64,000 nt of DNA, from positions 31,672 through 95,671 of the forward strand of contig CAVRGY010000002.1 of NCBI GenBank assembly GCA_963720825.1, written 5' to 3'. Numbering within the stretch: position 1 is the stretch's first letter; the number at the start of each line of letters is the position of its first letter. This DNA is from an uncultured Chloroflexia bacterium. Lineage in GTDB: Bacteria > Chloroflexota > Limnocylindria > Limnocylindrales > CSP1-4. Position numbers and translations under genes: made by a program. Under the pieces are notes generated by a model. That model was not told the DNA's origin, did no database searches, and saw only the letters and a program-made list of their open reading frames with translations. Shown piece after piece: positions 5,235-35,437 of this stretch.

Positions 5235-5276
5235 CCCGGCGGTCGTACCCCGCGCGTCCGCCCCGCCCCGTGAGGC

Positions 5277-5888: not shown

Positions 5889-5949
5889 CGCGGGCCTCCG
5901 GTGGCGTGCTGGGGTGGGGTGAGGATCGAGCGGGTCGAGCGGATGGTGA

Positions 5950-6933: not shown

Positions 6934-7198
6934 CAGGTTCAGGGATTCGATCGAACGATCCTCGGGCGCTTGGGCCGCGCGGTGGGTGGGTACCGCGACC
7001 CAAGGATATCGCTGGACGCCGCCATCGTTGACCCGCCGACGTACCCGCGTTGGCCATGACGGGTCATGGCGTGAGCGTGCCGAACGCACTCGGCGGGGCT
7101 CGGAAACCCACGGTTCTCCGGCCGAGCGCAGCTGACCTCAGCCGCGTCTCGACGGCCGCAGCGACGCGGGACGCCCGGTCGCCGGTATCCTTCGCGCC

Positions 7199-10114: not shown

Positions 10115-10159
10115 ACGCGCCGAACGCAGGCGCTGAACGCACGCGCCGAACGCAGGCGC
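10115..10159. repeat. Two copies of a 19-bp perfect direct repeat (acgcgccgaacgcaggcgc), in a 26-bp period, in the intergenic region upstream of the histidine kinase.
   Basis: Read directly: 10115-10133 and 10141-10159 are identical. Confidence 0.6.
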
Positions 10160-10184
10160 AGGTGTCACGCGCCCGGCCACCCCC

Positions 10185-11486
10185 GTGCGATCCTGTTGCC
10201 CGATGGAGGCCGTGTTCGTCATCGCCGTCGCAGGGCTCTCGCTCGCGCTCGTCGCGGCGCTGGTTGCCCTGCGCAATCGCGCCGCGGAGATGGACGACCT
10301 CATCGCGGCCGCGGGATCGCGAGGAGCCGCCGCGTCAGGCGCACTAACCGGGTCAACGGCACCCGCCGGGTCGGGGATAGCCGCCGGGTCAACGGCCCCC
10401 ACCGCGTCGTTGCCGCCCCTCGCCGGCATCCGTCCAGGGCCAGTGGTGCCCGGTGACGCGCAACCCGACCCGCTCGACGGCCTGATGCCGGTCGGGGTGC
10501 TCCATTTCGACGCAGACCGGCGCGTCGACCGGGCAAGCGCCCGGGCACACGTCCTGCTGGAGATCCGTCCCGGCCGGCTCATCGGCCGGACCGTGATGGA
10601 GACGTTCCTCGACGCCCGCGTCGAGGCGCTGGTCGACGGCGTCCCCGATGGCGGCACGGCGACCGGCGAGGCGAGGGTCGGCGTGCGCGAGCCACGCACG
10701 GTGGTCCTCCGGATCCATCGACCCCTCGACGGCACCTGGATCGTGCTCGAGGACGTGACCGAGCTCCGCCGCCTGCAGCAGATCCGGGCCGAGTTCATCG
10801 ACAACCTGAGCCACGAGCTGCGAACGCCGTTGACGACGGTGAGCCTGCTGGCGGAGACCCTGGCCCGTGATGCCGAGGGTGCCGACGTCCCCCCGCGCAT
10901 GCGCGAGCGGATCGCGAAGGTCGAAGTCGAGACCGGCCACCTCGTCCAGATGGTCAACGAGCTGCTCGACCTCGCGAGGATCGAGGGCGGCACCGAGATC
11001 CGCCTGGCCGACGACGTGGACCTCGGCCTGCTGGCCCCCGCGTCGACGGACCGGCTGCGGCTGTTTGCCGAGCGCCAGGGCGTGGAGCTGGCCGTGGAGG
11101 TGGACCCGGCCGCGCCGCCGGTCCGTGGCGACGAAGAGCGGTTGGGGCAGGTGATCGTGAACCTGGTCCACAACGCGGTCAAGTTCAGCCCCGGCGGTGG
11201 CGTGGTCACCGTCGATGTCCGAGCGGACGCCAGTGACGTGATCGTCTCGGTCACGGATCACGGGATCGGGATCTCGGCCACCGATGCCGCCCGGATCTTC
11301 GAGCGCTTCTACAAGGCCGACCGCGCCCGCGTGCGCGGCGGTGGGACGGGCCTGGGCCTCGCGATCGCCCGCCACGTCGTCGAACGTCACGGCGGCCGGA
11401 TCTGGGTGGAGTCCGAGGAGGGACAAGGCTCCACGTTTGCATTCGCGATCCCGGCGCTTCCGGTCGCGCCGCACCCCGATCGATGA
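10185..11486 (+). CDS. Sensor histidine kinase, SenX3/PhoR-like (N-terminal TM helix, HisKA, HATPase_c).
   Basis: H-box HELRTPLTTVSLLAETL, N-box VIVNLVHNAVKFSP, G-boxes DHGIGI and GTGLGLAIARHVVERHGGRIWVESEEGQGSTFAFAIP. The N-terminus is hydrophobic. Confidence 0.8.
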   Translation: MRSCCPMEAVFVIAVAGLSLALVAALVALRNRAAEMDDLIAAAGSRGAAASGALTGSTAPAGSGIAAGSTAPTASLPPLAGIRPGPVVPGDAQPDPLDGLMPVGVLHFDADRRVDRASARAHVLLEIRPGRLIGRTVMETFLDARVEALVDGVPDGGTATGEARVGVREPRTVVLRIHRPLDGTWIVLEDVTELRRLQQIRAEFIDNLSHELRTPLTTVSLLAETLARDAEGADVPPRMRERIAKVEVETGHLVQMVNELLDLARIEGGTEIRLADDVDLGLLAPASTDRLRLFAERQGVELAVEVDPAAPPVRGDEERLGQVIVNLVHNAVKFSPGGGVVTVDVRADASDVIVSVTDHGIGISATDAARIFERFYKADRARVRGGGTGLGLAIARHVVERHGGRIWVESEEGQGSTFAFAIPALPVAPHPDR

Positions 11487-18178: not shown

Positions 18179-19331
18179 TCAGGGCCAGACGGCCGACCCG
18201 TTGGCCATGACCTTGTGGAGCTCGTCGAGCGACTTCTGCTGGATCGGGGCGGGGAGCGGTGCGTAGCCCAGCCCGTCCTCGTCGGCCTGGCCGTCGGTCA
18301 GCGCCCAGTAGGTGAAGGCGACCATCGCCTGCGCCTTGTCGGCGTCCGTCCAGTCGACCGGGATCAGCAGGTAGGTGTAGGACGCGATCGGGTAGGTCGA
18401 GGCGCCCGCGCCGTTGATGATCGGGGCCTGGCGGAAGTCGGCCGGGAAGCTCGCGGCGGCGGCCTCGGCGGCTGCGGTGACGCCCGCGGTCGAGCCGGCG
18501 ACGAACTGGCCGTCCGCGTTCTTGACCTTGGCCGACGTCAGGCCGGCCTGCGCGGCGTAGTTGAGCTCGACGTAGCCCACCGTCCCGTCGGTCTGCTTGA
18601 CGCCGCCGGCGACGCCGTCGTTGCCCGGGGCGCCGATGCCCACCGGCCAGTCGACCTCCTTGCCCGCACCGGGTCCGGCGTGCCAGTCGGGGCTCACCGT
18701 GTCCAGGTACGTGGTGAACGCGTTGGTCGTGCCCGAGCCGTCACTGCGATGGACGACCGTGACGGCGAGGTCGGGGAGCGTGGCGCCGGGGTTGAGCGCC
18801 GCGATCTTCGGCATCGTTCCAGTTGGTGATCGTGCCCAGGAAGATCCCGGCCACCGCGTCGGCGTCGAGGTTCAGGTCCGTCACGCCGGGGATGTTGAAG
18901 ATCACCACGACGGCGCCCAGCGCGGTCGGGACGTGGAGCAGCGTGACGCCGGCCGGGAGGGCGGAGATCTCGCTGTCCTTCATCGCCGCGTCGGATGCGC
19001 CGAAGTCGACGGTCTGCTCGGTGATCGCCTTGATGCCGCCGCCGGAGCCGATCGCCTGGTAGTCGAACTGGATGTTGCCGTGCAGCTCGGTGTACTTCTC
19101 GAACCAGACCTGGTACAGCGGGGCCGGGAAGGTGGCGCCGGCTCCCTGGAGCACGAGGCTCGCCGTGCCGGGCTCGGGTCCGGTCATCGCGTCGCTCGAT
19201 GATCCGGGCGCCGTGCTCGCTGCGGGCTGGCCGGTGGGCTCGGTGGTGGCGCCGGAGCCGCCGCAGGCTGCGACGAACATGGTCGCGACGAGGGCGATCG
19301 CGCCGAGGCGCCTCGCAGGGGTGATCGTCAT
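18179..19331 (-). CDS. pstS: Phosphate-binding lipoprotein PstS. One-base frame break near 18808-18816 splits it into ORFs 18741..19400 and 18179..18814.
   Basis: Lipobox LVATMFVAACGGS. PstS motifs GAGATFPAPLYQVWF and …SDGSGTTNAFTTYL… appear in consecutive frames. GGAGGAG RBS six nt before the ATG at 19331. Confidence 0.8.
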
Positions 19332-19412
19332 CAGGACTCCTCCATGGGATGGGCCGGCGCCACGCGCCGTCACAGTGATTCCGTCTCTTGCCGCTCTCAC
19401 GTTCGAGCCGGG

Positions 19413-19454
19413 CCGTCAACGATTGATGTGCGGACTGTTAAGTGCGGGTTAACG
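19413..19454 (-). promoter_or_regulatory. Candidate PHO box: four 11-nt direct-repeat units (GTTAACCcgca CTTAACAgtcc GCACATCaatc GTTGACGgccc), 80-120 nt upstream of pstS and shared with the divergent Ppx gene.
   Basis: Read on the minus strand. Units 1, 2 and 4 resemble the actinobacterial PhoP/RegX3 GTTCACC core at 11-nt spacing. Confidence 0.4.
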
Positions 19455-19570
19455 CTTCGGCGGCGCCGGCTGGGTCCATGCACGGGTCACGTTCCCGCCT
19501 CCGGGCCGGTCCTCGAACGCGAGCGATCGGCCGCCGCACCTCATGGGGTCACGCCGGCCTCGCAGGGTCG

Positions 19571-20699
19571 CCGCGGGTGGGGCAGACTTGTGCGGTGGGC
19601 GATCACGACAGGACCGACTGGCGTCGGAGTGGCGAGACGAGCGGGCTCGACGACCCGTTTGCGCGCGCGCCAGGTGGTCTGGACGTCCCGCCGACGGGCG
19701 CAGGGTCGCTGGCTGCGGGCGGCGTGCGCGAGACGCCGGACCATGAGCCGGCCGGCGACGCGACCTCGAAGCGCGAGGCAAAGGCCGCGAAGCGCGCCGC
19801 GAAGAAGGAGAAAGCCGCGCGCAAGGCAGCGCGCAAGGCGGAACGGAAGGCCGTCCGGAAGGAAGCAAAACGGCGGGCCAGGGCGGCGCGGCGGGAGGCG
19901 GCAGCAGCCGAGAAGGCGGCGCAACGGGCGGCCAAGGCAGCAAAGCGGGCGGCGAGAGCCGCCCGAAGGGTCGAACGAACGGCCGCGGACGTTGCCGCAA
20001 CGGCGGTGGACGTTCACGCGGACGCCCGGCGGGTCAGACGAGTGCGCGCGGCGCGGGTCGCCGTGCCCGAGCCGGTGCCGGAGCAGGCAGAGCGACCGGG
20101 CGAGATGGCCGCGGCTGCCGAAGCAGTGCTCCAGGAGGTCGCCGATCTCGTCCGCCAGACGGCCGAGCCGGCCGCGTCGCGGATCGTCGACCGTGTCGGG
20201 CGGCGCGAGCGCGGACCCGAACCGGAGGCCGAGCCCGAACGCGAGCCGGCCGTCGAGCCTGGACCCGAGGCGGCCCTCGACCCTGAACCTCAGCCGGAGC
20301 CGGAGCCGGAACCCGGACTTGAGCCCGAACCCGAGCCCGAACCGGAACCCGAGCTGGAACCGGAGCCCGAACCGGAACCGGAGCCCGAACCCGAGCCCGA
20401 GCCGGAACCGGAGCCCGAGCCCGAGCCACGACCGTTCACCGAGCGGTCCGATCCGTGGCCGGTCGAGACGCCGTTCACGACGTCCGCCGATCGGACGAGG
20501 TTCGCGTTTGACGCCCGGATCCCACCCACGCACGTGCCCGATCTGGACCTCGACGTGCAGGACGGCGCTCCCGACGCCGGCCCCGTCGCGCCCGCGGCAG
20601 AACCTGAACTCGCCCCCGATCCGGCAGCCGTGCCCCAGCCCGCAGCCGAGTCCGAGCCGGAGCGACCGTCGGTGAGCGTGAGGGCGATTCTCGCAGCCC
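19571..20699 (+). CDS. Lys/Ala-rich basic region followed by an acidic Glu-Pro repeat region. Probably the N-terminal part of the downstream Ppx/GppA polypeptide. Start uncertain.
   Basis: Frame with a strong GC3 bias encodes [43 protein letters not shown]…, then (EP)n: [43 protein letters not shown]. No stop separates it from the Ppx domain frame once the single-base slip at 20697-20700 is allowed. Confidence 0.5.
20213..20436 (+). repeat. Tandem hexanucleotide (gagccn/gaaccg) repeat array encoding the (Glu-Pro)n tract.
   Basis: Read directly: near-perfect 6-nt periodicity over about 220 bp. Confidence 0.7.
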
Positions 20700-21656
20700 C
20701 TGCTGGCGACCGGCGCCGAGCTCGTCGTCGGCGCATCCATCGACATCGGAGCCAACAGCGTCCATCTCCTCGTCGCCGCGGCCGGCGCCCACCAGCTCGA
20801 CCCGCTGCTCGACGAATTGGTGTTTCTCGGGCTCGGGGATCGGGTCGCGACGGACGGCTTCCTCGGCTCGGCCGCGCGCGAGGACCTTGTCGCCGCCCTG
20901 GCGACGTACGCGGATGCCGCCCGGAACCTCGGTGCCGTCGAGGTCGTGCTGATGGGCACCGAGCCGATCCGGCGCGCCGCTGACGCCGCGATCCTTGTCC
21001 GCGATGTCGAAGCGCGAACCGGCCTCCCGCTGTACGTCCTTGACCACCGCGAAGAGGGCATGCTCACGCTGGCAGGCGTCACGATGGGGCGCGCCGCCGG
21101 CCGCGAGATCATGGTCTTCGACATCGGCGGCGGCAGCTCCGAGATCGTCGTCTCCTCGCCGGGCGAGCCTGCCCGGTGCATCGGCCTGCCACTCGGATCA
21201 GCGCGCCTGACGCAGGATCACGTTCGATCCGATCCGCCGACCATGGACGAGATCGACGCCATGGTCGTCGAGGCTCGACGCGTCATCGCCGACGCGCCCG
21301 ACGCCCGCCCCGAGGAGATGATCGCGGTCGGCGGAACGGCGTCCAACCTGCTGCGGATCCTGCCGGGAACGACGTCCGACAGCATCCTCACCAGCCGCCG
21401 CGTGACGATCGCGCTCGCGATGCTGACGGTCGGGACCAGTGCCGACACCGCGGCGCGCCACACGCTCCGCCACACCCGGGCCAGGATCCTGCCGGCTGGA
21501 GCCGTGATCGTTGACGCGATCCTGGACCGGTACGGTGTCGACCGCCTGCGCGTCTCCGAGGCGGGCATCCGGGAAGGGGCGATCCTGGTCAGCGCCATCG
21601 CGGGTCGCGCCTGGCGGGACCGGTTGCCCGTCCTGGCCGGCGGCTGGGAGGGCTAG
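20700..21656 (+). CDS. Ppx/GppA family phosphatase (exopolyphosphatase / pppGpp phosphohydrolase) domain. No canonical start in this frame; joined to the upstream frame by a C4 homopolymer slip.
   Basis: [22 protein letters not shown]…[16 protein letters not shown]…[12 protein letters not shown]…[10 protein letters not shown]. These are the actin-like ATPase motifs of Ppx/GppA. The frame is open from the stop at 20679 but carries no ATG/GTG/TTG before the conserved SIDIGANS. Confidence 0.8.
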
Positions 21657-21658
21657 GG

Positions 21659-23447
21659 CTACAGGCCTGCCACGAGCCGGCCGAGCGCTCGACGGAAGGC
21701 GAGGCTTGACAGCCCGCGCCACGGTCCGCCGACGGTCCGCCGGAGCCGCGCCAGCTCCCGCTCGCGGTCGACGAGATAGCGGCCGATCGCCGCGCTCTCG
21801 AGCTCCGTGAGGTCGCCCGCGTGCTCCACCAGGTACTGGCGTGCGAGGGCCGCCGCCACGTCCGCGTCGTGGAGCCAGCCGAGGTGGTCCTGCAGCGCGA
21901 CGATCTTCTCGATGACCAGGCCCGCGTCACGACCGAGCGCCTCGCGCACGAACTCCAGCGTGTAGCGCAGCCACTTGGCCGCGATCCGGAGGTCGTGGAG
22001 GGTGGTCACGTCGGCCCATCGAAGCACTGGCTCGTAGGCCCGAACGCCCTTCGTACGCCGCCCAGATCCGCGACGGCATCGTGTCCCGCACGCGATGGGG
22101 CTGGGTCGGCCCAACCGGGAGGGCGCCCGCTCCCTCCGCCTGGACGAACTCCACGTATGCGTCGACCCACTTGCGGTAGCGACCCGAATCGAGCTCCCGG
22201 AGCAGCACCTCGCGGGCCCCGTCCCGTTGCCCGCGCCATCCCTCGATCAGCCGGTCGAAGGCCGCCGCCTCGCGAGCCGGCAGCTGGTCGCGATGCGTCT
22301 CGGCGGCCCCGATCAGCACATCGAGGTCTCGGACCGCACCCAGGTCCCGGGCGACCTCGCGCAGCCGGACCCGGTGGCGGGCCGTCGCCTTGCGGTCGAA
22401 CGACTCGCCGAACACACGCCAGGCGGCACGCTGTCGCCGGGTGGCCACGCGCATCGCGTGCAGCTCCGCATCGTCGCGGCCGATGCGGGTGCCGGGCTCG
22501 CGGGCGATCATCCGGGCCAGGTGGAACCGCAGCACCTTGCGACCAGCCTCGGCGAGGTGGTCCTCGGCGATGACGCCCGGCGCCTTGGGCACGGTGATCC
22601 GCGGCACGACCGGCTCCGGCGCCTCGGTGGCGGTCGCGTCGGTGCCCGGTGCGGGCACCTCGACCGGTCCGCCGGCCACGCTCGTGCGGGGGCCCTGGGG
22701 CGCTTCGCGGAGGTCGCCGCCGGCCGCTGCCGAACGCTCGTCGGCTCCGTCGCTGCGTTCATCGTCCGCCCCCGGCTCGCCCGTGCCCGCCCGGTCGTGC
22801 TCGACCGCCTCCAGCGCCCGCTCGAGCTTCGACGACTCGGCCGGGACCAGCTCCTCGACCTCGGCGAGCAGGTCCGCCAGCGGCTCGAGGGCCGCCTCGC
22901 CGCCCTCGATGAGCTCCACCTCGAGCTCTGCGAACCGGTCCAGCACCCGCTCGCCGGCGACGATCTCCACGTCATCGACGGACAGCTCGACGACAACCCC
23001 CTCGCGCCCGTAGGTCCGCTTGTGCCGGGTCTGCCGGACGGTCACGAGGTCCGTGAGCGGGGCGCCGCCCAGCAGCTCCAGCACCGCGGTACGAGCCGCC
23101 GAGTCGGGCCACGCATCGGGCGGAACCTCGGCGATCGCCGGGCCTTCCAGCTCCTCGCGCCGGTGGAGCGCGCCGCCGGCGGCGTCCGAGCGAAGGGACT
23201 TGAGCGTGAGCACCGTGACATCGCCCGCCGACCGGAATCGCCCGGCGTAGCCCGCCGCGGCCAGCCGGCCATCGGCCGTGTCGACGTACCGGTCCTCGTG
23301 CTGGACCGTCGCGGCGGGGGCCAGCGCGGTGAACCCGGCCAGGTCGTCGGCGGCGATCAGGCGCGTTCCGGCGCCGGTCCCCGACATGCGGAACTTGAGC
23401 TCGACCTCGACCGCGCCGCCGGGTCGCGGGACAGCGACATCGGTCAC
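21659..23447 (-). CDS. CYTH-CHAD protein: triphosphate tunnel metalloenzyme domain plus a conserved-histidine alpha-helical (CHAD) domain. Frame break near 22040-22055. GTG start overlaps the ppk1 stop.
   Basis: N-terminal VEVELKF…ELEV… CYTH beta-barrel motifs. CHAD helices follow (…LHAMRVATRRQRAAWRVF…). The final CHAD part (…LHDLRIAAKWLRYTLEF…IEKIVALQDHLG…) continues in ORF 21659..22114. Confidence 0.75.
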
Positions 23448-25615
23448 GCGCGCGGGTCCATCGATCCGACGTTCGAGTGGGGCCGTCTCGGCACATCCGC
23501 GGCGGCGGCTGCGGCTGCGGCATCCTGCTTGAGCACGGCGAACGTGTCGATCTCGCCGGCGGCCGACGTCAGCACCTCGGTCCGGACCCATCGCCCGTCG
23601 GACTGCAGCTGCCACGAGCGACGGTCATCGGACAGCATGACCTCGATGATGCGCGCGAGCCGGACCTGCGCCTCGTGATCCTCGACCGGGGTCACCACCT
23701 CGACCCGGCGATCGAGATTGCGCTCCATCAGGTCCGCCGACCCGATGTACCACTCGGGGCGCCCGCCATTGGCGAACATCCAGATCCGCGAGTGCTCCAG
23801 GAACTCGCCGATGATCGAGCGCACGCGGGCCTGCTCGGAGGCGCCGGGCACGCCGGGAACCAGGCAGCACGCGCCACGGATGATGCACTCGATCTCGACG
23901 CCCGCCCGCGCCGCCTCGTACAGCGCCTCGACCACCTGGGTGTCGACCAGGGAGTTCACCTTGAGCACGATCCGCGCCTGCTGGCCCGCGCGGGCGTTCG
24001 CCGCCTCCCGCTCGACCAGCTCGAGGAACCGCGACCGGAGCGTCATCGGCGCCACGAGCAGCCGGCGGAACACGCTCTGGCGTGACAGCCCGGTCAGCAC
24101 GTTGAACAGGTCCGTGACGTCCGCGCCCAGCTCCTCGCGGCAGGAAAGCAGGCCGAGATCCACGTACAGGCGAGCCGTCCGCGAGTTGTAGTTGCCGGTG
24201 CCGATGTGGACGTAGCGCCGGAGCCCGTTGCCCTCGCGCCGGACGACGAGCGCGACCTTGCAATGGGTCTTGAGGCCGACCAGCCCGTACACGACGTGGG
24301 CGCCCGCCTGCTCCAGCTTGCGCGCCCAGACGATGTTGACCTCCTCGTCGAAGCGCGCCTTGATCTCGACCAGGACCACGACCTGCTTGCCCTGCTCCGC
24401 CGCGCGGATCAACGCCTTGACGATGGGCGAGTCGCCCGACGTCCGGTACAGGGTCTGTTTGATGGTCAGCACCAGGGGGTCATCCGCGGCCTGCGAGATG
24501 AACCGCTCGACGGAGGCGGTGAACGAGTCGTACGGGTGATGGAGGAGCAGGTCCCCGGCGCGCATCTGCGCGAACACGTCGACCGGCTCGTCCTCGTCCG
24601 GCGGCAGCAGGCGCTGGGGCACGACCGGCGTGAAGGCCGGCGCCTTGAGGTCGGGGCGGTCGAGCTCGGCGAGCTGCCACAGCGCCGTGAGGTCCATCAT
24701 CCCGGCGACCTCGAAGCTGTCGTCCTCGCGCAGGCCGATGCCGTTGATCAGGATCTTGCGCGTCAGCTCCGGCATCGAGCGCTCGACCTCGAGCCGGACC
24801 GCCTCGCCGAAGCGACGCCGCCGGACCTCCTCCTCGATCGCGAGCAGCAGGTCGTCGGCCTCGTCCTCCTCGATCGCGATGTCCGCGTCGCGGGTGACCC
24901 GGAACAGGTGTGTCTCGAGGATCTCCATGCCCCGGAACAGCTCGTCGAGGTTGGCCTCGATGACCTGGTCCAGGAGCACGAACCGGTCGCGCTCGACCTC
25001 GAACAGGCGGGGCAGGATCGGCGGGATCTTGACCCGCGCGAACCGCTTCTCGCCGGTCTCGGGGTCCCGCAGCCCGACCGCGATCGACAGCGACAGGGTG
25101 CTGATGTACGGGAACGGGTGGCCAGGATCCACCGCGAGCGGCGTCAGCACCGGGAAGATCTCGTCGTGGAAGCGGCGCCGGAGCGTGTCGTGGTGCTCGG
25201 GCACGTCGTCGTAGTCCACGATCTCGACGCCCTCGGCGGCGAGCTCCTCGCGGATGGTCGTGAAGATCAGGGAGTGCTCGGCGACCAGGTCACGGACCCG
25301 GGCCCGGATCGCGTCCAGCTGCTGTGCGGGGGTCAGGCCGTCCGAGGACAGGTGCTGCGAGCCCGCCAGGTCCTGCCGCCGCAGCCCGGACACGCGAACC
25401 TGGAAGAACTCGTCGAGGTTGGACGCGAAGATCGCCAGGAACTTGACGCGCTCGAGGATCGGGTTGCGCGCGTCCCGTGCCTCGTGGAGCACGCGCGCAT
25501 TGAACTCGATCCACGACAGCTCGCGGTTGAGGATCGGGGCCTTGTGGTCGTGCACCGCCCGCCGTCGTCCGCGGGGCGCGGCGCGGGGTCCGGGAGCGGG
25601 TCGAACGGCGGTCAT
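23444..25615 (-). CDS. ppk: Polyphosphate kinase 1.
   Basis: ILNRELSWIEFNARVLHEA…FLAIFASNLDEFFQVRVSGL… and two PLD-like HKD regions. About 720 aa, typical of PPK1. GAGAGG RBS. Confidence 0.9.
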   Translation of the reverse strand: MTAVRPAPGPRAAPRGRRRAVHDHKAPILNRELSWIEFNARVLHEARDARNPILERVKFLAIFASNLDEFFQVRVSGLRRQDLAGSQHLSSDGLTPAQQLDAIRARVRDLVAEHSLIFTTIREELAAEGVEIVDYDDVPEHHDTLRRRFHDEIFPVLTPLAVDPGHPFPYISTLSLSIAVGLRDPETGEKRFARVKIPPILPRLFEVERDRFVLLDQVIEANLDELFRGMEILETHLFRVTRDADIAIEEDEADDLLLAIEEEVRRRRFGEAVRLEVERSMPELTRKILINGIGLREDDSFEVAGMMDLTALWQLAELDRPDLKAPAFTPVVPQRLLPPDEDEPVDVFAQMRAGDLLLHHPYDSFTASVERFISQAADDPLVLTIKQTLYRTSGDSPIVKALIRAAEQGKQVVVLVEIKARFDEEVNIVWARKLEQAGAHVVYGLVGLKTHCKVALVVRREGNGLRRYVHIGTGNYNSRTARLYVDLGLLSCREELGADVTDLFNVLTGLSRQSVFRRLLVAPMTLRSRFLELVEREAANARAGQQARIVLKVNSLVDTQVVEALYEAARAGVEIECIIRGACCLVPGVPGASEQARVRSIIGEFLEHSRIWMFANGGRPEWYIGSADLMERNLDRRVEVVTPVEDHEAQVRLARIIEVMLSDDRRSWQLQSDGRWVRTEVLTSAAGEIDTFAVLKQDAAAAAAAADVPRRPHSNVGSMDPRA

Positions 25616-25670: not shown

Positions 25671-25736
25671 GAGCCACGTCACCCGAACCCGGTTGGGCCG
25701 CCGAGAATAGCATGCGGCGGTGCGCGGGCCCGGTGG
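25671..25736. repeat. Left copy of an imperfect ~65-bp direct repeat that bounds the RHS/IS3 island. Contains an extended -10-like TGCTATTCT on the minus strand, upstream of ppk1.
   Basis: gagccacgtcacccgaacccggttgggccgccgagaatagcatgcggcggtgcgcgggcccggtgg aligns to 35438-35503 at about 85% identity. Confidence 0.65.
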
Positions 25737-26061
25737 CAAACGTTCTTCGGGTACGACGCCGACGGGCGCCTGGAAGTCCCGCGAGGCTCAAGCCTGATGG
25801 CGAATAGGTATCGAATAGGTACCGGCCCGCAACGCCCGAAGTTGGTGGGCCGAAGGCCCCATTGCGTCCGCCGGTCCCGGCCGAATCCTGCGTGATTAGA
25901 CCGACGGTCGCCTCTCAACGGGGGCGGATCGGTCGCCTGGACTGGGGAGGACGCGGCGATCGTCCGAAGCTCGTCGGCTTCCGTCGAGATGCACCGGATC
26001 CGGTCGTGCCCGTCATCCCTGCCTTGCCCAGGTCGCGCTGGCCAATGGGAGGGAAATCGCG

Positions 26062-27036
26062 ATGGCACGGCACGTGCGTCGGGTGGCCGGTGTGGCTTCC
26101 CGCATGGCCCTGAGAATTGTCCGGATCGCACACGGTGCAATCACGCTGGTGCTGCCGGTTGTGCTTGTGGCGGGCCTGGCGCTTGTCCGGGCTGGCGGAA
26201 TCAGCGCCGGCTCCGCCAGCGGGCCTGCCCTCAACGCCGGCGCTCAGCAGTCCGGACTCTCCGCCCGCGCCCAGCTGGACCGCGGCGCGACCCAGATGAC
26301 GGCGTCGCTGTCGTCTGGCTTCGATTTCACGGTGGTCGCCCGCTCGACGCTGTACGCGAAGCCCGACGGTCCGAAGATCGAGGTGCCCGACCCAGCCGAT
26401 CCGTACACGGTTGCCGGCGTCGCCGACAGCTACGACCTCGGCGCAACGGCCGCCATCGGCACCGTCAAGGGGGAGGACTTCTTCCTTCAGCTGTACGACG
26501 GCCCGACGGACCCCGGAAAGCCGGTCGACCTGGCGACGCTTGCGCCCTCGCTCGCGGCCCTGGTGCGCGACGGCCACACCTGGCGCAACGACGGCGACGG
26601 GTGGTATGTGACCGATCAGCCGCCCGGCATCGGGCTCGACCCGCGCACCGCCGCGCTGCTGCCCGCGATGCTGCGCAACACGACCGCGGCGAAGGATGCG
26701 CCTGCGACGCTCCTCGCCGGTCAGCAGCTGCCGACCGTGGCAGCGGCCGCCGCCGTCGCCGACGCACCCGGGTTGATGGCGATCGATGCGGCCCCGTTCA
26801 CCGTGTTCGCGCAGCCGCTCTCGTTCGCGTTCGATGCCAGCGGCCGGCTGGCCCAGCTGACGGCGACCATGCGCAACACGCGGATGGCCGACTTCGACCT
26901 CATCGTGGTGACCACGATCACCTTCGACTACGACCATCTCAGCGCGTTCCCGGACGCCTCGCCCACGGCGCCACCACCACCGACGCTGGCGCCGGATCCG
27001 ATCGGTGCGGTCGGGCAGCCGGAGGCCTCGCGATGA
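26062..27036 (+). CDS. Membrane-anchored hypothetical protein. Its stop overlaps the RHS start (ATGA).
   Basis: N-terminal TM segment AITLVLPVVLVAGLALV. GC3-biased frame. A GGAGG RBS for the downstream RHS gene lies in its 3' end. Confidence 0.5.
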   Translation: MARHVRRVAGVASRMALRIVRIAHGAITLVLPVVLVAGLALVRAGGISAGSASGPALNAGAQQSGLSARAQLDRGATQMTASLSSGFDFTVVARSTLYAKPDGPKIEVPDPADPYTVAGVADSYDLGATAAIGTVKGEDFFLQLYDGPTDPGKPVDLATLAPSLAALVRDGHTWRNDGDGWYVTDQPPGIGLDPRTAALLPAMLRNTTAAKDAPATLLAGQQLPTVAAAAAVADAPGLMAIDAAPFTVFAQPLSFAFDASGRLAQLTATMRNTRMADFDLIVVTTITFDYDHLSAFPDASPTAPPPPTLAPDPIGAVGQPEASR

Positions 27037-30000
27037 CCGCCCGTCCGCGCCTGCTACCGCGCCTGCGCGTGGTGGCGATGACGATCGTCCTGACCGTCAC
27101 CGGCGTTGCGGTCCAGGCGGCTCCGGTCGCCCCGTCCCACGACATCCCGGATCACCCCTTCAGCCTGCCCCTGCCGTTCGGGCTGGGTCCGCAGACGGCG
27201 CTCGCCGCCTACTGCGCGAGCGGCCCCTCGTTCCAGGGCAAGCTCACCCAGCAGCTCGTCAACTCGGGCACCCCGTCGACCGCGGCCTGGATCACCAGCA
27301 ACACCGTCTACGGCTGGATCAGCCGTGTCGACGCCGCGTGGAGCTGCACCCTCTACCGCCGCTACTCCGGGCTCACCTGGAACGTGACCTCGACTCTGGG
27401 CATCTTCGACTACGGGACGATCATCAACTCGACGTCAGTGTCCTGCAACTGGGGCGTCGGCTCGACCGATTACCTCAAGGCGAACGGCACCCAGGTCTGT
27501 CCGTCGACCGACACCTCGAACGTGCTCTCGATCCAGCTCACCAAGGAGCGCGTCTACCAAGCTGACGCCTCGCACAACGGCGAGGGCGACTACAGCTTCG
27601 TCCACTCGGACTGCGCCACGACCCCCTACTACGGAGCCGAGGTCCAGAAGGGGTCCGAGGCGTCGCCGACCTCGTTCAGCACCGGGACGACCAACAACCG
27701 CCCGGGCGCGAACTGCGACCCGATCGCGCTCGACAGCACCAACACGAGCCAGACCGTCACCTACGACGCGACCGTGCCCACGATCGCGATCAGCAGCCCG
27801 TCGACCGGGACCCCGGCCGCTCCTGCGGTCGTGCCGTCGGCCTTTGCCACGGTCGAGTTCGACGCGACCGACGCCGTCGCGGGCTTCGGCGGCACCAATG
27901 GCTGGAGCCTGCAGCGCAAGGTGGCGACCCCCTCGGGCGGTGCCTGCGGCACGTTCGCGAACGACGGCGCCGCGGTGACCGGGACGAGTGCCGGCACCGG
28001 TCAGCACAGCGGTCAGAGCCTGACGGTCGGCAAGTGCTACCAGTGGGTGCTCACCGCCGCCGACCAGAACGGCAACGCGGCGACCGCGGTCACGTCGGGG
28101 ACGATCCTGACGGACACCAGCGCCGTACTGGGGTCACAGCCCCAGCTGCGGACCGAGTCCTGGGACCTCGGCGCTGGCGACAGCCTCGCTGTCAGCGTCG
28201 GCTCGGGCAACGTGCTCATCAACCACCCGATCGTGAGCCTGCCGATGCGCGGCAGCTCGCTCGACATCGGGCTCACGTACAACAGCCAGGATGCCGGGAA
28301 CGTCGGGTTCGGGGCCGGCTGGCGGCTCAACGTCCAGCGCCGGCTCACGCTCAACGCCGACAACACGGTCACGTTCATCGACGGCAGCGGCGCACGGTAC
28401 ACGTTCACCAACCCGCAGACCAACGGCACCGTCACCACCTACCCGCGGCCGTCCAACCTGTACGCGACCCTCGTGAAGGACACGAGCCAGCAGGTCGAGT
28501 TCACGCTCACCTACAGCGGCCAGAGCCTCGACATGTTCGACATCGCGGGCTCCGAGGGCCTGCTGACGCGTGAGCAGGACCGGTTCGGTAACGGGGTGAC
28601 TCTCGCGTACGTGTCCGGGACCAACCGGATCACGACGATCACCGACACGGCGGCCTCGCCCAACCGGGTCGTCAACTTCGCCTATGACGGCTCCAACCGC
28701 CTGACCTCGATCACCGACTGGGCATATGTGTCGGGGGGCGTCGTCCAGACGGGCGCGACCGGCAGCCGCCGGGTCAGCCGCTTCTTCTACGACGGCTCGT
28801 CCAACCTCGCAGGCTGGGCCGACCCGCTCAACACGACCGGATCCTGCCCAACCGGCGGCAGCCACCTCACCTGCCTCACGCTCACCAACGGACTGGTGAC
28901 CCGGGTCGGCAAGACCCAGACCTACGAGACGCTGGCGTCCGGCGTCCTGGGTTCCGCGACCCGGGCGATGAACACCGACGTCGTGTACTCAGGCTCCGAC
29001 GTCGCCGCGGTCAAGGACGCCGAGCAGGTCGCAGCCAGCGGCAGCGGGGCGACCTTCAGCCACCTCAATCCCGGCCAGACACAGGTCGTCCGCCCCGGGA
29101 CCCCCGCCTCCACAACCCGATATACGCTCGCCTCGCCCACCGACGCATACGGGCGGATCACCTCGGTCAAGCGCCTGCTCGGCGCATCGACCTGGATCGA
29201 GCAGCGGACGGCGTACAACAGCACGTACCCGATCGAGCCTGCCTCAATCACGGACAACTACGTCGACGGGACCCCGTCGGACACCGCGCCCGACGAGGAC
29301 CGGATCACCGCCTACACGTACGTCACGAGCTCGCTGGGCCTCGTGTCGCGGCTGACCGAGCCGCTGACCGCGTCCACCCACCGCACGACCGACTACACCT
29401 ACAACGCCCACAACGACGTGACCCAGCAGATCGTCGCGCTCGATGGCTCAGGCTCGATCCGGACGATCACCAGGTTCTGCTACGACGCGTCGTGCACGAC
29501 ATCGGGCAACGGGCTCACGCTGCTCAGGCGGATCGACAACTACGTTGACGGAACGGCCGGCAACGGTGCCGCCAACGTCGAGGACGTCACCACGAGCTTC
29601 ACGTATGACACGGCCTGCGCGGGCGGCGCGACCTGCGGCCAGGTCACCCGCGAGACGCGTGCCAACTACACCACGGCCGGCACGCTGCTCGACTCGCGCG
29701 CGATCGGGCACACCTACGATGACAAGGGCGACGTCACCTCGGACATCGCGAACTACGTCAATGGCACGGTGACCAGCCCGGGCGACGACATCACGCCCAA
29801 CGCCACCACCGGCGCGCGCACCGACCTCACGATCGCGCACATCTACGACACCGCTGGCAACAGAGTGTCTACTGCCGACCCGCGGCGCGCGATCGAGTCA
29901 GCCAAGGGCACGGCCCTCAACGCCGACGACTTCATCGGCCGCTCGACCTTCGATCCGCTGGGCCAGACCCTCACCAGCACGACCGCGACGACGCCCGGGA

Positions 30001-32678: not shown

Positions 32679-33111
32679 TCCAGAGATCACCGCCGCCTGG
32701 ATTGCGGCCGCGGTACGCCGTTGCTTCAGCTTTCTCGAGCGTGATCACAAATACCGCTGGGACGGGTCCACGGCGGACGGGAGGAAGGTCGTCGCGCATT
32801 TCTCCCGACCAGGTTCACAGGTAACTGTTCTGTGGGACGACTGGGAGGGAATGCTCGAAGCGTCGCTCGCTCTGTCAGAGGACTCGGGCACTCGGATTGT
32901 GGACGTGAAGAATCTCCTTTTCGTTCTCGGGCTTGAGCCAACCCAGCGAGGCCCGATCGACGTCCGGAGCCAGAGCGAGATCGACGGCGCAATGCGACTG
33001 ATGGCAGCTGGCCTCGCGGTTGGCCTGGGACCGATATTGGGGGGCGACAGGTCAGCGCTGAGGCAGATCGAGGACTTCGTGGAGGCGGTCGATCCAGGCG
33101 GCATCCGGTGA
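32671..33111 (+). CDS. Candidate cognate immunity protein (146 aa, overlaps the toxin stop by 8 nt).
   Basis: Small ORF translationally coupled to the toxin C-terminus, with lowered GC. Placement is typical of RHS/CDI immunity genes. No recognisable family. Confidence 0.45.
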   Translation: MADPEITAAWIAAAVRRCFSFLERDHKYRWDGSTADGRKVVAHFSRPGSQVTVLWDDWEGMLEASLALSEDSGTRIVDVKNLLFVLGLEPTQRGPIDVRSQSEIDGAMRLMAAGLAVGLGPILGGDRSALRQIEDFVEAVDPGGIR

Positions 33112-33288
33112 AGGGCGATGCCGAGTCGTCGGTTGAGCGCTCGACAATCCGTTGGCACGAGGTGTTGGTTCTATCGGGGCCCGCCGTCGTGGGTGCCCTG
33201 GTCTTGGCACCCACGAAACATCGCCTCTACATCGTCGAGTGCCCGGCTAAGTCGCATCGCGAGGATCTAGTCGCCGCAAATACCGTGA

Positions 33289-33569
33289 TTGGGCCCCGTA
33301 CTTGCCGAGACGTCCGACGCGCTCGGAAATGCCACCACCTACGAGTACGACGCGAACGGCAACCGTGCCTCGAAGACCGACGGCACCGGGACGACGAGCT
33401 ATGCGCGCGACGAGCAGAACCGGCTGACCTCGGTGACCACGCCGGGCCCGGTCACGGTCGGCTACCGCTACGACCTAGACGGCAACCGACGCCGGCTCAT
33501 CTATCCCGACGCCACCGCGGTCGACTACACCTTCGACAAGGCGGACCGGATGGCGTCGCTCAAGAATTC
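33289..33569 (+). pseudogene. RHS (YD-repeat) gene remnant, truncated by the IS3-family insertion.
   Basis: TYEYDANGNRASKTDGTGTTSYARDEQNRLTSVT…YRYDLDGNRRRL…YTFDKADRMASL. Internal YD repeats. The frame runs straight into the IS inverted repeat at 33570. Confidence 0.5.
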
Positions 33570-33599
33570 TTGGACACTTACGGGCTCGGATAGGTGTGA

Positions 33600-34537
33600 T
33601 ACGGGATGCGCCAGGTAGGCCGTGATCGGGGTCGCGAAGTCGAGCGCTTGTGGGGCCGGATCCCGTTGTACAGCTGGCGGAATGCCTCGACCTCGTCGAC
33701 GAGCGCGATCACGTCCGGGATCTCGAGACGGTAGAGGTGCTCGTACTTGAGGGTCTGGTAGAACGCTCGACGACGCGTTGGTCTCGGGCGCGTGGTAGAG
33801 GTTCCGCACGTGGGCGAGCTCCGGCAGACTGGCGATGAAGTGGAGGAAGTCCGAGCTCTTGTACGCGGGACCGTTGTCGGTCACGATGGTCACGGGCTCG
33901 ATCTCGCCGTCTCGTGATCGATGCAGTCCTGGAGGAGGGGATGACCCAGGAGCGTTCGGCGAGCGGCGATTGCGGCCTCGACCGCAGCGATGGCGTAGCG
34001 GGCGCCGGTGGTGCCGCTGACGGGGATCCCGAGGCAACAGCTTGGTCGCGTAGTCGACGACCGGCGCCAGCCGCCAGGTCCCGTGGCGGCTGGTCTCGAA
34101 CTCGGTGAAGTCGGTCTGCCACACGCGGTAGCGGCGTGTAGGCGCCTCGACGAACAGGGCCCGGCGCGCGACCGCGAGCTGCCGTCGTTCGGCCTGGTAG
34201 CGCACGGGCAGGAGCAGATTGCGCCGCGCCAGCGCCCGCAGCACCGAGCTGCGCGACACCGCGCACGCCGTCCGCGCGCAGCATCGCCCAGATCTTGCGG
34301 TGGCCCCATGCTGACCAGCGATACGCCTGCTCGGCCGCACCGGGTCTCGATCGCGTCGACGACCGGGGCCGGCCAGCGGCGAACCGACCGCCCGTGCAGG
34401 TAGCGCAGCCCGCCAGTGGTACCAGGTGGAGCTCGGGATGCCCAAGGCGGGCGAGGAACCGGCGGACCGGGACCGCTCTCTCGGCCCTCAGCTGCTCGAG
34501 CTCTTCGTACGCGGGTAGAGCGCCCCCTTTTTTCGCC
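33600..34537 (-). pseudogene. IS3-family transposase OrfB (rve integrase core), disrupted by at least four frameshifts.
   Basis: Segments (GHRKIWAMLRADGV; RRYRVWQTDFTEFETSRHGTWRLAPVVDYATKLL; IVTDNGPAYKSSDF; PETN…; RPHQALDFATP) follow the correct IS3 OrfB order but alternate among three frames. Confidence 0.6.
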
Positions 34538-34814: not shown

Positions 34815-34897
34815 GTCGTCATCACCTCGTCAGGCCCCGGCAGGGATCACAGTGCCGAGTGTCCAACTCAGTCTGACGCAGGACAAATGCCCTAATC

Positions 34898-35247: not shown

Positions 35248-35437
35248 GATGTGCGACGTCCCGCCCAAGTCGACGTGGCAGGCGCCAGAACAGCCGTATC
35301 CACAACGGCCTCCCCGTCCAATCCTCCATCCGCCGCCCGATGTCAACGCCGATCCGCATCAGAATCCGACGAGTTTGGTGGGTGCCGGACGGCAACGTCG
35401 GGGCCCGCGTCGGACCAGGCACCCGGCCGGCGGACCT

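What the first reader, a model, noticed from the sequence alone, without database searches (positions are those of the whole stretch)
19442..21656. Ppx/GppA phosphatase apparently preceded in-frame by a histone-H1-like Lys/Ala repeat region and a (Glu-Pro)n tract
The Ppx/GppA domain frame is open from 20682 but has no ATG/GTG/TTG before the conserved SIDIGANS. The upstream frame encodes [20 protein letters not shown]… followed by (EP)n. It runs without a stop to a cccc run at 20697-20700. Removing one C there fuses the two frames.

The result would be a single polypeptide: a basic, polyanion-binding KA-repeat tail, then an acidic EP spacer, then an exopolyphosphatase. A KA-rich tail could tether the enzyme to polyphosphate granules or to the nucleoid. 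The gene is divergent from pstS, across a PHO-box-like repeat, and convergent with ppk1-CYTH-CHAD.
Basis: partly seen in the sequence, partly recalled or inferred. Interest (0 to 1): 0.65.

Follow-up and report, generated by a model that had tools for sequence, protein, structure and literature searches.

The report
Exopolyphosphatase with built-in charged N-terminal tether
A soil Chloroflexota bacterium encodes a polyphosphate-degrading enzyme that carries a long positively charged helix and a negatively charged Glu-Pro spacer ahead of its catalytic domain; the break between them in this window is a one-base insertion (most likely an assembly error), and dozens of relatives have the same fused design, which suggests, but does not prove, a built-in tether to polyphosphate or DNA.

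Summary
A Ppx/GppA domain (frame 0, 20691-21656) has no start codon. It is preceded in another frame by an ORF for a Lys/Arg/Ala block and a (Glu-Pro)~22 tract.

The single-polypeptide reading is supported. Relatives at 96%, 88% and 67% Ppx identity (L001, L003, L004) carry one uninterrupted 666-794 aa open frame with the same layout. About 58 database homologues (500-900 aa) do too. In the N-terminal region, all seven indels against L001 are multiples of 3. dN/dS there is 0.07-0.18, as low as in the catalytic domain.

The frameshift is one extra base at 20688-20691, not in the cccc run. pstS, CYTH-CHAD and an ABC ATPase in the window also carry frame breaks. An error-prone assembly is therefore the likeliest cause, and a programmed shift is unlikely.

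"Histone-H1-like" is only compositional. The basic block has no proline. It is predicted as one ~73-80-residue α-helix (+24) with K/R spaced every 3.65 residues.

The catalytic core is the short Aquifex type and lacks the C-terminal polyP-binding domains of E. coli PPX. The tether function is inferred, not tested.

This is an undescribed, lineage-restricted variant of a known enzyme, of moderate interest.

The parts
19415..19453 (.). PHO-box-like array in the pstS-ppx intergenic region: GTCAAC (19415), GTTAAG (19437) and GTTAAC (19448), in 11-nt phase
   Evidence: Read from the sequence. The hexamers are invariant in window, L001, L002 and L003, while flanking bases vary. Binding by a PhoP/PhoB-type regulator was not tested.
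19577..19762 (+). Variable N-terminal leader (reconstructed residues 1-62). The start codon is uncertain: GTG 19577 or GTG 19595, and the frame is open from 19442.
   Evidence: L001's ORF begins at the equivalent GTG. dN/dS is 0.43-0.48, so constraint is weak. The invariant DNA block GGTGGGGCAGACTTGT lies at 19575-19590.
19763..19981 (+). Basic block (residues 63-135): 14 K, 17 R, 29 A, 7 E, 0 P, net +24. Predicted to be one long cationic amphipathic α-helix.
   Evidence: Composition and K/R periodicity of 3.65 residues, with power 3.43 against a shuffle 95th percentile of 1.79. The AF2 model of homologue P0002 shows an 80-residue helix with pLDDT 72-87. dN/dS is 0.155 against L001 and 0.065 against L003.
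20108..20212 (+). Conserved family motif (residues 178-212): [33 protein letters not shown]
   Evidence: Consensus [28 protein letters not shown]. L, A, L, R and P are invariant in 22 sequences. dN/dS is 0.18. AF2 gives two short helices at low confidence. The basic block plus this motif was found only in this Ppx family among 1.84 billion representatives.
20213..20446 (+). Acidic Glu/Pro-rich spacer (residues 213-290, net -28), including a (Glu-Pro)~22 tandem array at 20292-20427
   Evidence: TRF finds period 6 with 22.7 copies. The tract has 29 E and 29 P in 75 residues. The Pfam Trypan_PARP hit (36.6 bits) is far below its cut-off of 100. AF2 predicts disorder, with pLDDT below 45. Length differences against L001 are in-frame, at 72, 6 and 12 nt.
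20447..20687 (+). Acidic, poorly conserved linker (residues ~291-370) leading up to the catalytic domain
   Evidence: dN/dS is 0.41-0.53. Indels against L001 are 3, 3 and 30 nt.
20688..20691 (+). One extra base (within TTCT) that shifts frame 2 to frame 0. This is the actual site of the frameshift.
   Evidence: Pairwise and multiple alignments with L001, L002 and L003 all lack one base here. Deleting T20688 gives ...[30 protein letters not shown], matching L001 ...[30 protein letters not shown].
20691..21656 (+). Ppx/GppA catalytic core: short two-domain ASKHA type, ~320 aa, stop TAG 21654-56
   Evidence: Pfam PF02541 scores 115.7 bits against a cut-off of 27. The best solved relatives are Aquifex aeolicus PPX/GPPA 2j4r, 1t6c and 1t6d. 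The Foldseek TM-score, normalised to the target, is 0.86 to 1t6d for the model of homologue P0002. The DIGANS, EEG and DIGGGSSE motifs are present.
18179..19331 (-). pstS, transcribed divergently. It is also broken by a 1-nt insertion at 18812.
   Evidence: The PBP_like_2 profile is split 4-127 / 127-263 between two frames. The extra base is absent from L001-L004. L001 has an intact 383-aa pstS.
21659..23615 (-). CYTH-CHAD gene, convergent with ppx. It is also broken by a 1-nt insertion at 22050.
   Evidence: The CHAD profile is split 2-158 / 165-227 between two ORFs. The extra T is absent from L001, L002 and L004. L001 has an intact 630-aa protein.
23444..25615 (-). ppk1 (polyphosphate kinase 1), intact, 723 aa
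   Evidence: ORF. The syntenic orthologues in L020 and L021 carry the PP_kinase_N, PP_kinase and PP_kinase_C domains.

Best explanation
**What it is (shown).** 19577-21656 is one gene for a ~692-aa, 73-kDa exopolyphosphatase. Its layout, from N to C terminus, is:
- a variable leader;
- a ~73-aa polycationic Ala/Lys/Arg α-helix (+24);
- a conserved ~27-aa motif (LxEVAxLVRQxxEPAAxRIVxRV);
- an acidic Glu/Pro-rich spacer that includes (EP)~22;
- a linker;
- a short two-domain Ppx/GppA core.

In this window the gene is interrupted by one extra base at 20688-20691. This is most likely an assembly indel, because other genes in the window are broken in the same way. The fused architecture is the native state of a family restricted to Limnocylindrales-type Chloroflexota. 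It sits in a conserved phosphate/polyP locus: phoU-pstBACS, then ppx in the opposite direction, then CYTH-CHAD and ppk1 converging on it.

**How it probably works (inferred).** The catalytic core lacks the C-terminal domains that bind long polyP chains in E. coli PPX. The cationic helix presents a stripe of Lys/Arg every 3.65 residues over about 11 nm. It would supply polyanion binding, holding the enzyme on polyP chains or granules (or on the adjacent nucleoid). The anionic, proline-rich spacer would be repelled by polyP and would act as an extended leash. That leash would let the catalytic domain work on chain ends near the anchor, and it would keep the basic helix away from the acidic catalytic domain.
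For: **Architecture**
- L001 (732 aa), L003 (794-aa open frame) and L004 (666 aa) have uninterrupted ORFs with the same block order.
- 79 homologous clusters, mostly 500-900 aa, come from NCBI, ENA, JGI and Logan.
- In 54 of the 58 homologues with an extension of at least 200 aa, the basic block precedes the acidic block.
- 7 of 7 indels in the extension are multiples of 3.
- dN/dS is 0.155/0.065 for the basic block, 0.18 for the motif, 0.16-0.18 for EP and 0.11-0.15 for Ppx.

**Frameshift as an artefact**
- The extra base is absent from all relatives.
- pstS and CYTH-CHAD carry equivalent single-base insertions. An ABC ATPase shows a similar frame break with no reference sequence to compare.
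- The relatives come from the same kind of MAG collection, and some of those show similar breaks (L002, L022).

**Structure**
- The AF2 model of P0002 has an 80-residue helix (pLDDT 72-87), a disordered EP region and a confident Ppx core.
- K/R periodicity is 3.6-3.7 in the window and in most of the 10 homologues analysed.

**Core type**
- The closest structures are Aquifex PPX/GPPA, and the full ~300-residue target is covered.

**Context**
- The synteny is conserved in contigs of 3.6 Mb and 1.3 Mb.

**Literature**
- Short PPXs lacking the C-terminal region prefer short chains, and the E. coli PPX C-terminus binds the polyP chain (PMC3411833).
- Lys-rich regions of AlgP, YihI and RNase R associate with polyP (PMC9239181, PMC12345225).
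- Canonical Ppx was not granule-enriched in P. aeruginosa (PMC9239181).
Against: - No experiment or structure shows that the helix binds polyP rather than DNA or RNA, or anything at all.
- The sizes of the positive and negative blocks do not co-vary across 59 homologues (r = -0.26). A strict intramolecular charge-pairing model is therefore not supported.
- AF2 confidence for the motif is low. The model is of a homologue, built from only 24 sequences.
- The catalytic domain scores below the trusted cut-off of NCBIfam 'exo_poly_only' (181 against 307 bits). PolyP rather than (p)ppGpp as substrate rests on context.
- The window's source reads were not available, so a genuine inactivating mutation in this strain cannot be excluded.
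- Initiation at the conserved in-frame GTGs (20672, 20678) could also yield a short isoform.
Confidence: 0.6

Rival explanations
1. The frameshift is real in this organism. On this reading ppx, pstS and CYTH-CHAD are genuine pseudogenes in a lineage that is losing its Pho/polyP locus. The fused architecture would still be the ancestral state.
For: Three adjacent phosphate genes each carry a 1-nt insertion that all relatives lack. The window also holds an in-frame TAG in an O-methyltransferase. That change is a substitution, which is less typical of indel-type assembly error.
Against: Disruptions are not confined to the Pho locus. The ABC ATPase at ~57.1 kb and the methyltransferase at 2.5 kb are also affected. 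dN/dS against L001 remains low across the gene (0.11-0.18), which shows no relaxation. Sister MAGs from the same collection show similar breaks elsewhere (L002, L022).
Confidence: 0.2
2. The cationic helix binds nucleoid DNA (or RNA), not polyP. It would act as a histone-like anchor that places the enzyme on the chromosome, where polyP granules form.
For: Lys/Ala-rich tails such as those of AlgP and PhaF bind DNA, and AlgP links granules to the nucleoid (PMC9239181). A stripe of basic residues cannot tell polyanions apart by sequence analysis.
Against: The block lacks the proline-containing KPAA/PAKKA repeats of known DNA-binding H1-like tails (0 Pro). The gene sits among polyP genes rather than nucleoid genes. 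Neither point is decisive.
Confidence: 0.25
3. There are two separate products. The KA/EP ORF would be an independent gene or non-coding, and Ppx would start on its own at GTG 20672/20678 or at a non-canonical codon.
For: In-frame GTGs are conserved 16-18 codons before the domain (P-[SP]-V-[ST]-V in window and L001-L003). The window has GGAG 9 nt upstream of GTG 20672. In the more distant L007 and L008, a basic protein is encoded by a separate ORF that overlaps the ppx start.
Against: No stop codon separates the parts in L001, L003 and L004 or in about 58 homologues. Translation of the upstream part must therefore run into Ppx. The upstream frame is clearly coding. The GGAG is not conserved in L001-L003.
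Confidence: 0.05
4. The shift is a programmed +1 ribosomal frameshift that regulates how much full-length Ppx is made.
For: The two frames overlap without a stop for about 300 nt.
Against: The orthologues need no shift. There is no slippery or stop-codon-stalled motif at 20688-20691, and the site is not conserved. Neighbouring genes carry the same kind of insertion.
Confidence: 0.01
5. The extension is regulatory or scaffolding rather than a substrate tether. The acidic EP tract could mimic polyP and mask the basic helix until polyP competes it off. Alternatively, the plus/minus diblock could drive coacervation with polyP, or the conserved motif could recruit a partner such as PPK1 or the CHAD protein.
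For: The basic-then-acidic order is conserved in 54 of 58 homologues. A strongly conserved motif sits between the blocks and has no assigned role.
Against: The charges of the two blocks are neither balanced nor correlated (mean +18 against -33, r = -0.26). AF2 shows no confident docking.
Confidence: 0.15

Closest known systems
Aquifex aeolicus PPX/GPPA (PDB 1T6C, 1T6D, 2J4R) and other short two-domain Ppx/GppA enzymes (M. tuberculosis Rv0496, C. glutamicum PPX2)
   Same: The catalytic core has the same length (~310 aa) and fold. It gives the best sequence hits (E 5e-22) and the best fold hits (TM 0.86 normalised to the target). The phosphate-binding and catalytic motifs are intact.
   Different: Those enzymes start a few residues before the DxGSNS loop. 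This one carries a ~370-aa N-terminal extension with no counterpart in them.
E. coli PPX (PDB 1U6Z, 2FLO), four-domain long-chain processive exopolyphosphatase
   Same: Both add an extra polyanion-binding part to the ASKHA core, and both sit next to ppk. The proposed role of the extension matches what the E. coli C-terminal region does (PMC3411833).
   Different: The addition here is N-terminal. It is a charged helix plus a disordered spacer, not the folded C-terminal domains III and IV. There is no sequence or fold relationship between them.
AlgP / PhaF KPAA-repeat tails of Pseudomonas (histone-H1-like)
   Same: Both are Lys/Ala-rich and strongly cationic. AlgP localises to polyP granules through such a tail (PMC9239181).
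   Different: AlgP's tail consists of proline-containing KPAA tandem repeats, is predicted to be disordered, and is attached to a DNA-binding protein. The block here has 0 Pro, many Arg and Glu, α-helical periodicity, and is attached to an enzyme.
CHAD domain proteins (polyP-binding helical bundles)
   Same: Both are helical, have a basic surface and occur in polyP gene clusters. A CYTH-CHAD gene is the immediate neighbour.
   Different: CHAD is a folded double four-helix bundle with conserved His and Arg residues (PMC6537752). The extension gives no CHAD hit.
(Glu-Pro)n tracts of TonB and trypanosome procyclin (PARP)
   Same: The EP dipeptide repeat is the same. From general knowledge, in TonB it is regarded as an extended, rigid spacer.
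   Different: The similarity is compositional only. The Pfam PARP score of 36.6 is well below the cut-off of 100. The proteins have different contexts and are not homologous.

Membership tests
Ppx/GppA phosphatase family (Pfam PF02541) | Profile match above the curated gathering score | tested here: met
   115.7 bits against a cut-off of 27, covering profile positions 2-279 of 285.
Ppx/GppA phosphatase family (Pfam PF02541) | ASKHA phosphate-binding loops and catalytic acidic residues (DxGxNS; EE(G/A); DIGGGS..E) | tested here: met
   [16 protein letters not shown] and FDIGGGSSE were read directly from the sequence. These columns are invariant in the 24-sequence family alignment.
Ppx/GppA phosphatase family (Pfam PF02541) | Two-domain actin-like fold | tested here: met
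   AF2 model of homologue P0002 (pLDDT above 90 in the core). Foldseek to 1T6D gives E 1e-26 and a target-normalised TM-score of 0.86. The model is of a homologue, not of the window protein itself.
Exopolyphosphatase proper (NCBIfam TIGR03706 exo_poly_only) | Score above the curated cut-off, which separates Ppx from GppA | tested here: not met
   181 bits against a cut-off of 307. It is still the best-scoring model, ahead of GppA at 53 bits. Substrate assignment rests on the ppk1, CHAD and pst context.
E. coli-type long PPX/GppA | C-terminal domains III and IV (~150-200 aa) that bind long polyP | tested here: not met
   The protein ends ~320 aa after the start of the core. Matches to 1U6Z and 2FLO cover only their first ~300 residues.
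Histone-H1-like / AlgP-PhaF KPAA tail | Tandem proline-containing K-P-A-A / PAKKA-type repeats, intrinsically disordered | tested here: not met
   The basic block has 0 Pro in 73 residues. It is predicted to be a continuous α-helix, and TRF finds only two short 12-nt repeats.
Histone-H1-like / AlgP-PhaF KPAA tail | Binding to DNA and/or polyP granules | not testable with these tools
   This needs binding and localisation experiments.
Procyclin / PARP (Pfam PF05887) | Profile match above the gathering score | tested here: not met
   36.6 bits against a cut-off of 100. The match is to the EP repeat only.
CHAD polyP-binding domain (Pfam PF05235) | Profile match within the N-terminal extension | tested here: not met
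   No hit at E up to 1. CHAD is present only in the neighbouring gene.
Programmed ribosomal frameshift site | A frameshift conserved in orthologues, with a slippery or stalling motif | tested here: not met
   Orthologues are contiguous and lack the extra base.

The most novel reading that the evidence does not exclude
Limnocylindrales-type Chloroflexota may have evolved a self-targeting exopolyphosphatase. An ~11-nm cationic stripe helix would anchor it on polyP granules. A polyanionic (Glu-Pro)n leash would set how far the short catalytic core can reach. This would give long-chain or granule-surface activity without the C-terminal domains used by proteobacterial PPX. In a sister lineage (L007, L008) the cationic part is a separate protein encoded just upstream, so the module would be a transferable granule-targeting device.
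Probability: 0.35. Interest if true: 0.65.

Novelty: new variant of a known kind. Interest (0 to 1): 0.45.

Why it matters
How polyP-degrading enzymes reach polyP that is packed into granules is poorly understood. In P. aeruginosa, Ppx was found only in the lysate, not with granules, and part of E. coli polyP resists an overexpressed exopolyphosphatase (PMC9239181, PMC12345225).

A natural Ppx with a conserved, purifying-selected polycationic helix and an acidic spacer would be a compact test case. It could address polymer targeting, chain-length preference and processivity. It could also serve as a portable polyP-binding tag.

For annotation, the finding shows that these genes are single 60-80-kDa proteins. 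It also shows that frame breaks in such MAG assemblies should be repaired before interpretation.

Tried and rejected
- **Motif-only profile search.** A 40-column profile searched against 5.8 billion proteins found nothing at E up to 0.1. The motif is too short to reach significance.
- **Tracing the window's source.** Exact-protein look-ups of PPK1 and PstC found nothing on record.
- **Charge balance.** I tested whether the basic and acidic blocks co-vary, as a cis-neutralisation model would predict. They do not (r = -0.26).
- **Homology to the separate upstream ORF of L007/L008.** hhalign picks out the motif region, but only at E 0.035 and probability 1.5%. This remains a lead only. BLASTP of the L008 ORF against the P0076 N-terminus gives E 0.001, but P0076 lies on an error-laden contig.
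- **Family searches on the extension.** Pfam and NCBIfam give no family. The only hits are compositional: PARP, and the K/A tail of adenylate kinase PRK13808.
- **Basic block plus motif in other domain contexts.** A profile search against 1.84 billion representatives found it only in family members and fragments. All other hits match the K/A/E low-complexity part alone.
- **Promoter and terminator scan of 19300-19800.** Nothing was found.
- **The 546-aa antisense ORF (19541-21181) and the 443-aa frame-0 ORF.** Both were rejected as coding. Substitutions concentrate at third positions of plus frame 2, and indels keep that frame.
- **GC-phase segmentation to find further frameshifts.** It was too noisy. 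I replaced it with Pfam checks of overlapping ORF pairs.
Full report
**1. The observation**

The window is 71.5% G+C. The Ppx/GppA domain (Pfam PF02541, 115.7 bits, E 3.5e-33) lies in frame 0 and ends at TAG 21654-56. Upstream in that frame there are TGA stops at 20673-75 and 20679-81. The first ATG/GTG/TTG is TTG 20817, which is beyond the SIDIGANS loop at 20736.

Frame 2 is open from 19442 to 20983. It encodes ...[28 protein letters not shown]..., then a Glu/Pro-rich stretch. Tandem Repeats Finder reports a 6-nt unit in 22.7 copies at 20292-20427, which is (Glu-Pro)n.

ORF length alone means little here, because five of the six frames are open across this stretch. The frame needed independent validation.

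**2. Is the upstream frame coding, and is it fused to Ppx?**

A scan of species-representative genomes with the Ppx core returned eight Chloroflexota MAG loci.

- L001 is 96% identical in Ppx and 92% identical in DNA over 11 kb. It has a single ORF, 4759-6957, of 732 aa. The order of parts is leader, K/R/A block, [36 protein letters not shown] repeats, linker, Ppx.
- L003 (88%) has a 794-aa open frame and L004 (67%) a 666-aa ORF, both with the same order.
- L005 and L006 (54%) are cut by contig ends but have at least 240 in-frame acidic EP-rich residues upstream.

A MAFFT alignment of window against L001 was informative. Every indel inside 19600-20680 is a multiple of three (6, 72, 6, 12, 3, 3 and 30 nt). 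Indels in the intergenic part (19349-19530) are 1, 1, 2, 1 and 3 nt.

Nei-Gojobori dN/dS for the window against L001 / L003:

| Region | vs L001 | vs L003 |
|---|---|---|
| Basic block | 0.155 | 0.065 |
| Motif | 0.18 | 0.18 |
| EP tract | 0.18 | 0.16 |
| Catalytic core | 0.106 | 0.149 |
| Leader | 0.43 | 0.48 |
| Linker | 0.53 | 0.41 |

The extension is therefore translated in frame 2 and is under purifying selection. In relatives it runs into Ppx with no stop.

They are annotated only as hypothetical or Ppx/GppA, and where named they come from Candidatus Limnocylindrales or Chloroflexota. Of the 58 with an extension of at least 200 aa, 54 have a basic 30-residue window before an acidic one. 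A relaxed form of the motif is found in 51.

**3. Where and what is the frameshift?**

Alignment with L001, L002 and L003 shows one extra base in the window at 20688-20691: GCGATTCTCGCAG against GAGATTC-CGCGCC and GAGATCT-CCCGG. Deleting T20688 gives ...[32 protein letters not shown]001 reads ...[31 protein letters not shown]. The cccc run at 20697-20700 is read normally (Q-P-L).

The same window carries other disruptions:

- a 1-nt insertion in pstS at 18812 (PBP_like_2 profile split 4-127 / 127-263);
- a 1-nt insertion in CYTH-CHAD at 22050 (CHAD profile split 2-158 / 165-227). Both insertions are absent from every relative, and L001 has intact 383-aa and 630-aa proteins;
- a frame switch in an ABC ATPase near 57140-57160 (ABC_tran profile 2-51 in one frame, 59-136 in another);
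- an in-frame TAG in an O-methyltransferase at 2561-63.

Related MAG contigs show similar breaks (L002 inside the EP repeats, L022 throughout). Gene-disrupting changes are thus scattered across the window. The ppx break is therefore most simply an assembly indel. A real pseudogene cannot be excluded without reads. A programmed frameshift is effectively excluded.

**4. Anatomy of the repaired protein**

From GTG 19577 the protein is 692 aa, 73.0 kDa, with pI 4.96. The true start is uncertain. The ATG before SKREAKA in L001 and L002 is not conserved in the window or L003. An invariant DNA block, GGTGGGGCAGACTTGT, lies at 19575-19590.

| Block | Residues | Net charge |
|---|---|---|
| Leader | 1-62 | -6 |
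| Basic | 63-135 | +24 |
| Motif | 178-212 | 0 |
| EP | 213-290 | -28 |
| Linker | 291-372 | -10 |
| Core | 373-692 | -11 |

The basic block holds 14 K, 17 R, 29 A, 7 E and 0 P. The EP block has 29 E and 29 P in 75 residues.

K/R positions in the basic block show a sharp periodicity at 3.65 residues. The power is 3.43 against a shuffle 95th percentile of 1.79, and only 0.05 at 3.5. The same 3.6-3.7 peak appears in most of the 10 homologues analysed. The positive charges therefore line one face of an α-helix and do not follow a heptad coiled-coil pattern.

AlphaFold2 was run on homologue P0002 with a 24-sequence alignment. It predicts:

- an 80-residue continuous helix for this block (pLDDT 72-87);
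- two short, low-confidence helices for the motif;
- disorder for the EP region;
- a confident core (pLDDT above 90).

Foldseek superposes that core on Aquifex aeolicus PPX/GPPA with a target-normalised TM-score of 0.86. By sequence the best solved relatives are also 2J4R and 1T6C/D. The core is the short two-domain type with no C-terminal domains.

No Pfam or NCBIfam family covers the extension. A profile of the basic block plus motif was searched against 1.84 billion representatives. It found only family members and fragments of them. The remaining hits match just the K/A/E low-complexity part.

**5. Context**

The gene is divergent from pstS, whose ATG at 19331 has a GGAGGA ribosome-binding site. 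The intergenic region holds GTCAAC, GTTAAG and GTTAAC at 19415, 19437 and 19448. They are in 11-nt phase and invariant in L001-L003. That is PHO-box-like, but untested.

ppx is convergent with CYTH-CHAD and ppk1. The stop codons of ppx and CYTH-CHAD are 2 nt apart. The order phoU-pstB-pstA-pstC-pstS, then ppx, then CYTH-CHAD and ppk1, recurs on contigs of 3.6 Mb and 1.3 Mb carrying homologues P0007 and P0013.

**6. Mechanism**

Shown: a conserved, selected, tripartite extension on a short Ppx core in a polyP/Pho locus.

Inferred: the cationic helix binds a polyanion. Three lines of literature bear on this.

- Short PPXs (M. tuberculosis PPX1, C. glutamicum PPX2) prefer short chains and lack the ~150-200 C-terminal residues. 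In E. coli PPX those residues bind the polyP chain (PMC3411833, citing Rangarajan 2006, Alvarado 2006 and Bolesch & Keasling).
- Lys-rich segments of AlgP, YihI and RNase R associate with polyP (PMC9239181, PMC12345225).
- CHAD binds polyP along basic helical surfaces (PMC6537752). Canonical Ppx was not granule-associated in P. aeruginosa (PMC9239181).

The most economical reading is that the helix is a polyP or granule anchor. It would replace the missing C-terminal binding domains. The anionic, proline-rich tract would be an extended leash that polyP repels.

I tested one prediction of a cis charge-masking variant, and it failed. Block charges are not balanced (mean +18 against -33) and not correlated (r = -0.26). 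DNA binding is the main functional rival and cannot be separated from polyP binding in silico.

**7. Comparison with known systems, and novelty**

The protein is a member of the Ppx/GppA family, of the short Aquifex-like type. It is not an E. coli-type long PPX.

The basic block is not an H1/AlgP-type tail. It has no proline and no KPAA repeats, and it is helical. The resemblance is in composition and possibly in function.

The EP tract resembles the TonB and procyclin repeats in composition only (Pfam 36.6 bits against a cut-off of 100).

Full-text searches found no description of such a Ppx.

I rate it a new, lineage-restricted variant of a known enzyme. Interest is moderate, because the function is unproven and the hosts are uncultured.

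**8. A lead from a sister lineage**

In L007 and L008 (53-54% Ppx identity) a separate 211/219-aa basic ORF ends about 30 nt inside the ppx reading frame. Its product starts MAK(S/T)EAKQ.KPSKRAATKAFERAWKLLGRLE..., contains ...ALLTELSELIAANARA..., and ends in a Pro/Ala/Arg-rich tail. In L007, ppx has its own GGAGG and ATG.

The two assemblies are independent and agree, so the split is probably real. Homology of this ORF to the fused extension is only hinted at: hhalign aligns the motif region at E 0.035 and probability 1.5%.

P0076 appears to fuse an L008-like N-terminus and (TRKPAA)n repeats to Ppx. However, it lies on a heavily frameshifted contig.

Noticed in passing
window 18812 and 22050: pstS and the CYTH-CHAD gene each carry a single extra base that splits their Pfam domains between two frames. 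L001-L004 lack these bases.
   Followed up: yes
window ~57140-57160 (ORFs 56760-58775 and 57082-57651): An ABC-transporter ATPase switches frame near a CCC run. ABC_tran profile positions 2-51 lie in one frame and 59-136 in another. This is a further frame break far from the Pho locus.
   Followed up: partly
window 2561-2563: There is an in-frame TAG inside a family-3 O-methyltransferase (...GALLGLLV*LLDARRCLEIGTFTGYS...). This is a nonsense substitution, not an indel.
   Followed up: partly
window 25734-35426: About 9.7 kb is present here but absent from the otherwise collinear relative L001. It encodes a 2229-aa RHS-repeat/DUF6531 protein (25989-32678). G+C dips to 0.62-0.65 at 32-34 kb. This looks like an inserted polymorphic-toxin island.
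   Followed up: partly
L007 5274-5909 and L008 5283-5942: In a sister lineage a separate 211/219-aa basic protein is encoded immediately upstream of ppx and overlaps its start. This may be a split version of the fused extension. Homology to the extension is only weakly indicated.
   Followed up: partly
L022 8001-9845 (protein P0076): A distant homologue has (TRKPAA)n AlgP-like repeats directly before the Ppx domain instead of an acidic spacer. The contig is full of fragmented genes, so the fusion may be an artefact.
   Followed up: partly
window 19575-19590: The DNA block GGTGGGGCAGACTTGT is invariant in window, L001, L002 and L003 and is more conserved than its surroundings. It could be the ribosome-binding and start context of ppx, or a regulatory site.
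   Followed up: no
window 19577-20686 (residues 58-160): There is a weak NCBIfam match (E 0.0013, 18 bits) to the C-terminal K/A-rich tail of adenylate kinase model PRK13808. That is another enzyme with a similar basic appendage. The match is probably compositional.
   Followed up: no
window 21654-21661: The stop codons of the convergent ppx and CYTH-CHAD genes are only 2 nt apart. That leaves no room for separate terminators.
   Followed up: no
window 1452-2366 and 10137-11483: An OmpR-type response regulator and a PAS/HisKA/HATPase histidine kinase lie in the same window. They are candidates for the regulator acting on the PHO-box-like repeats.
   Followed up: no
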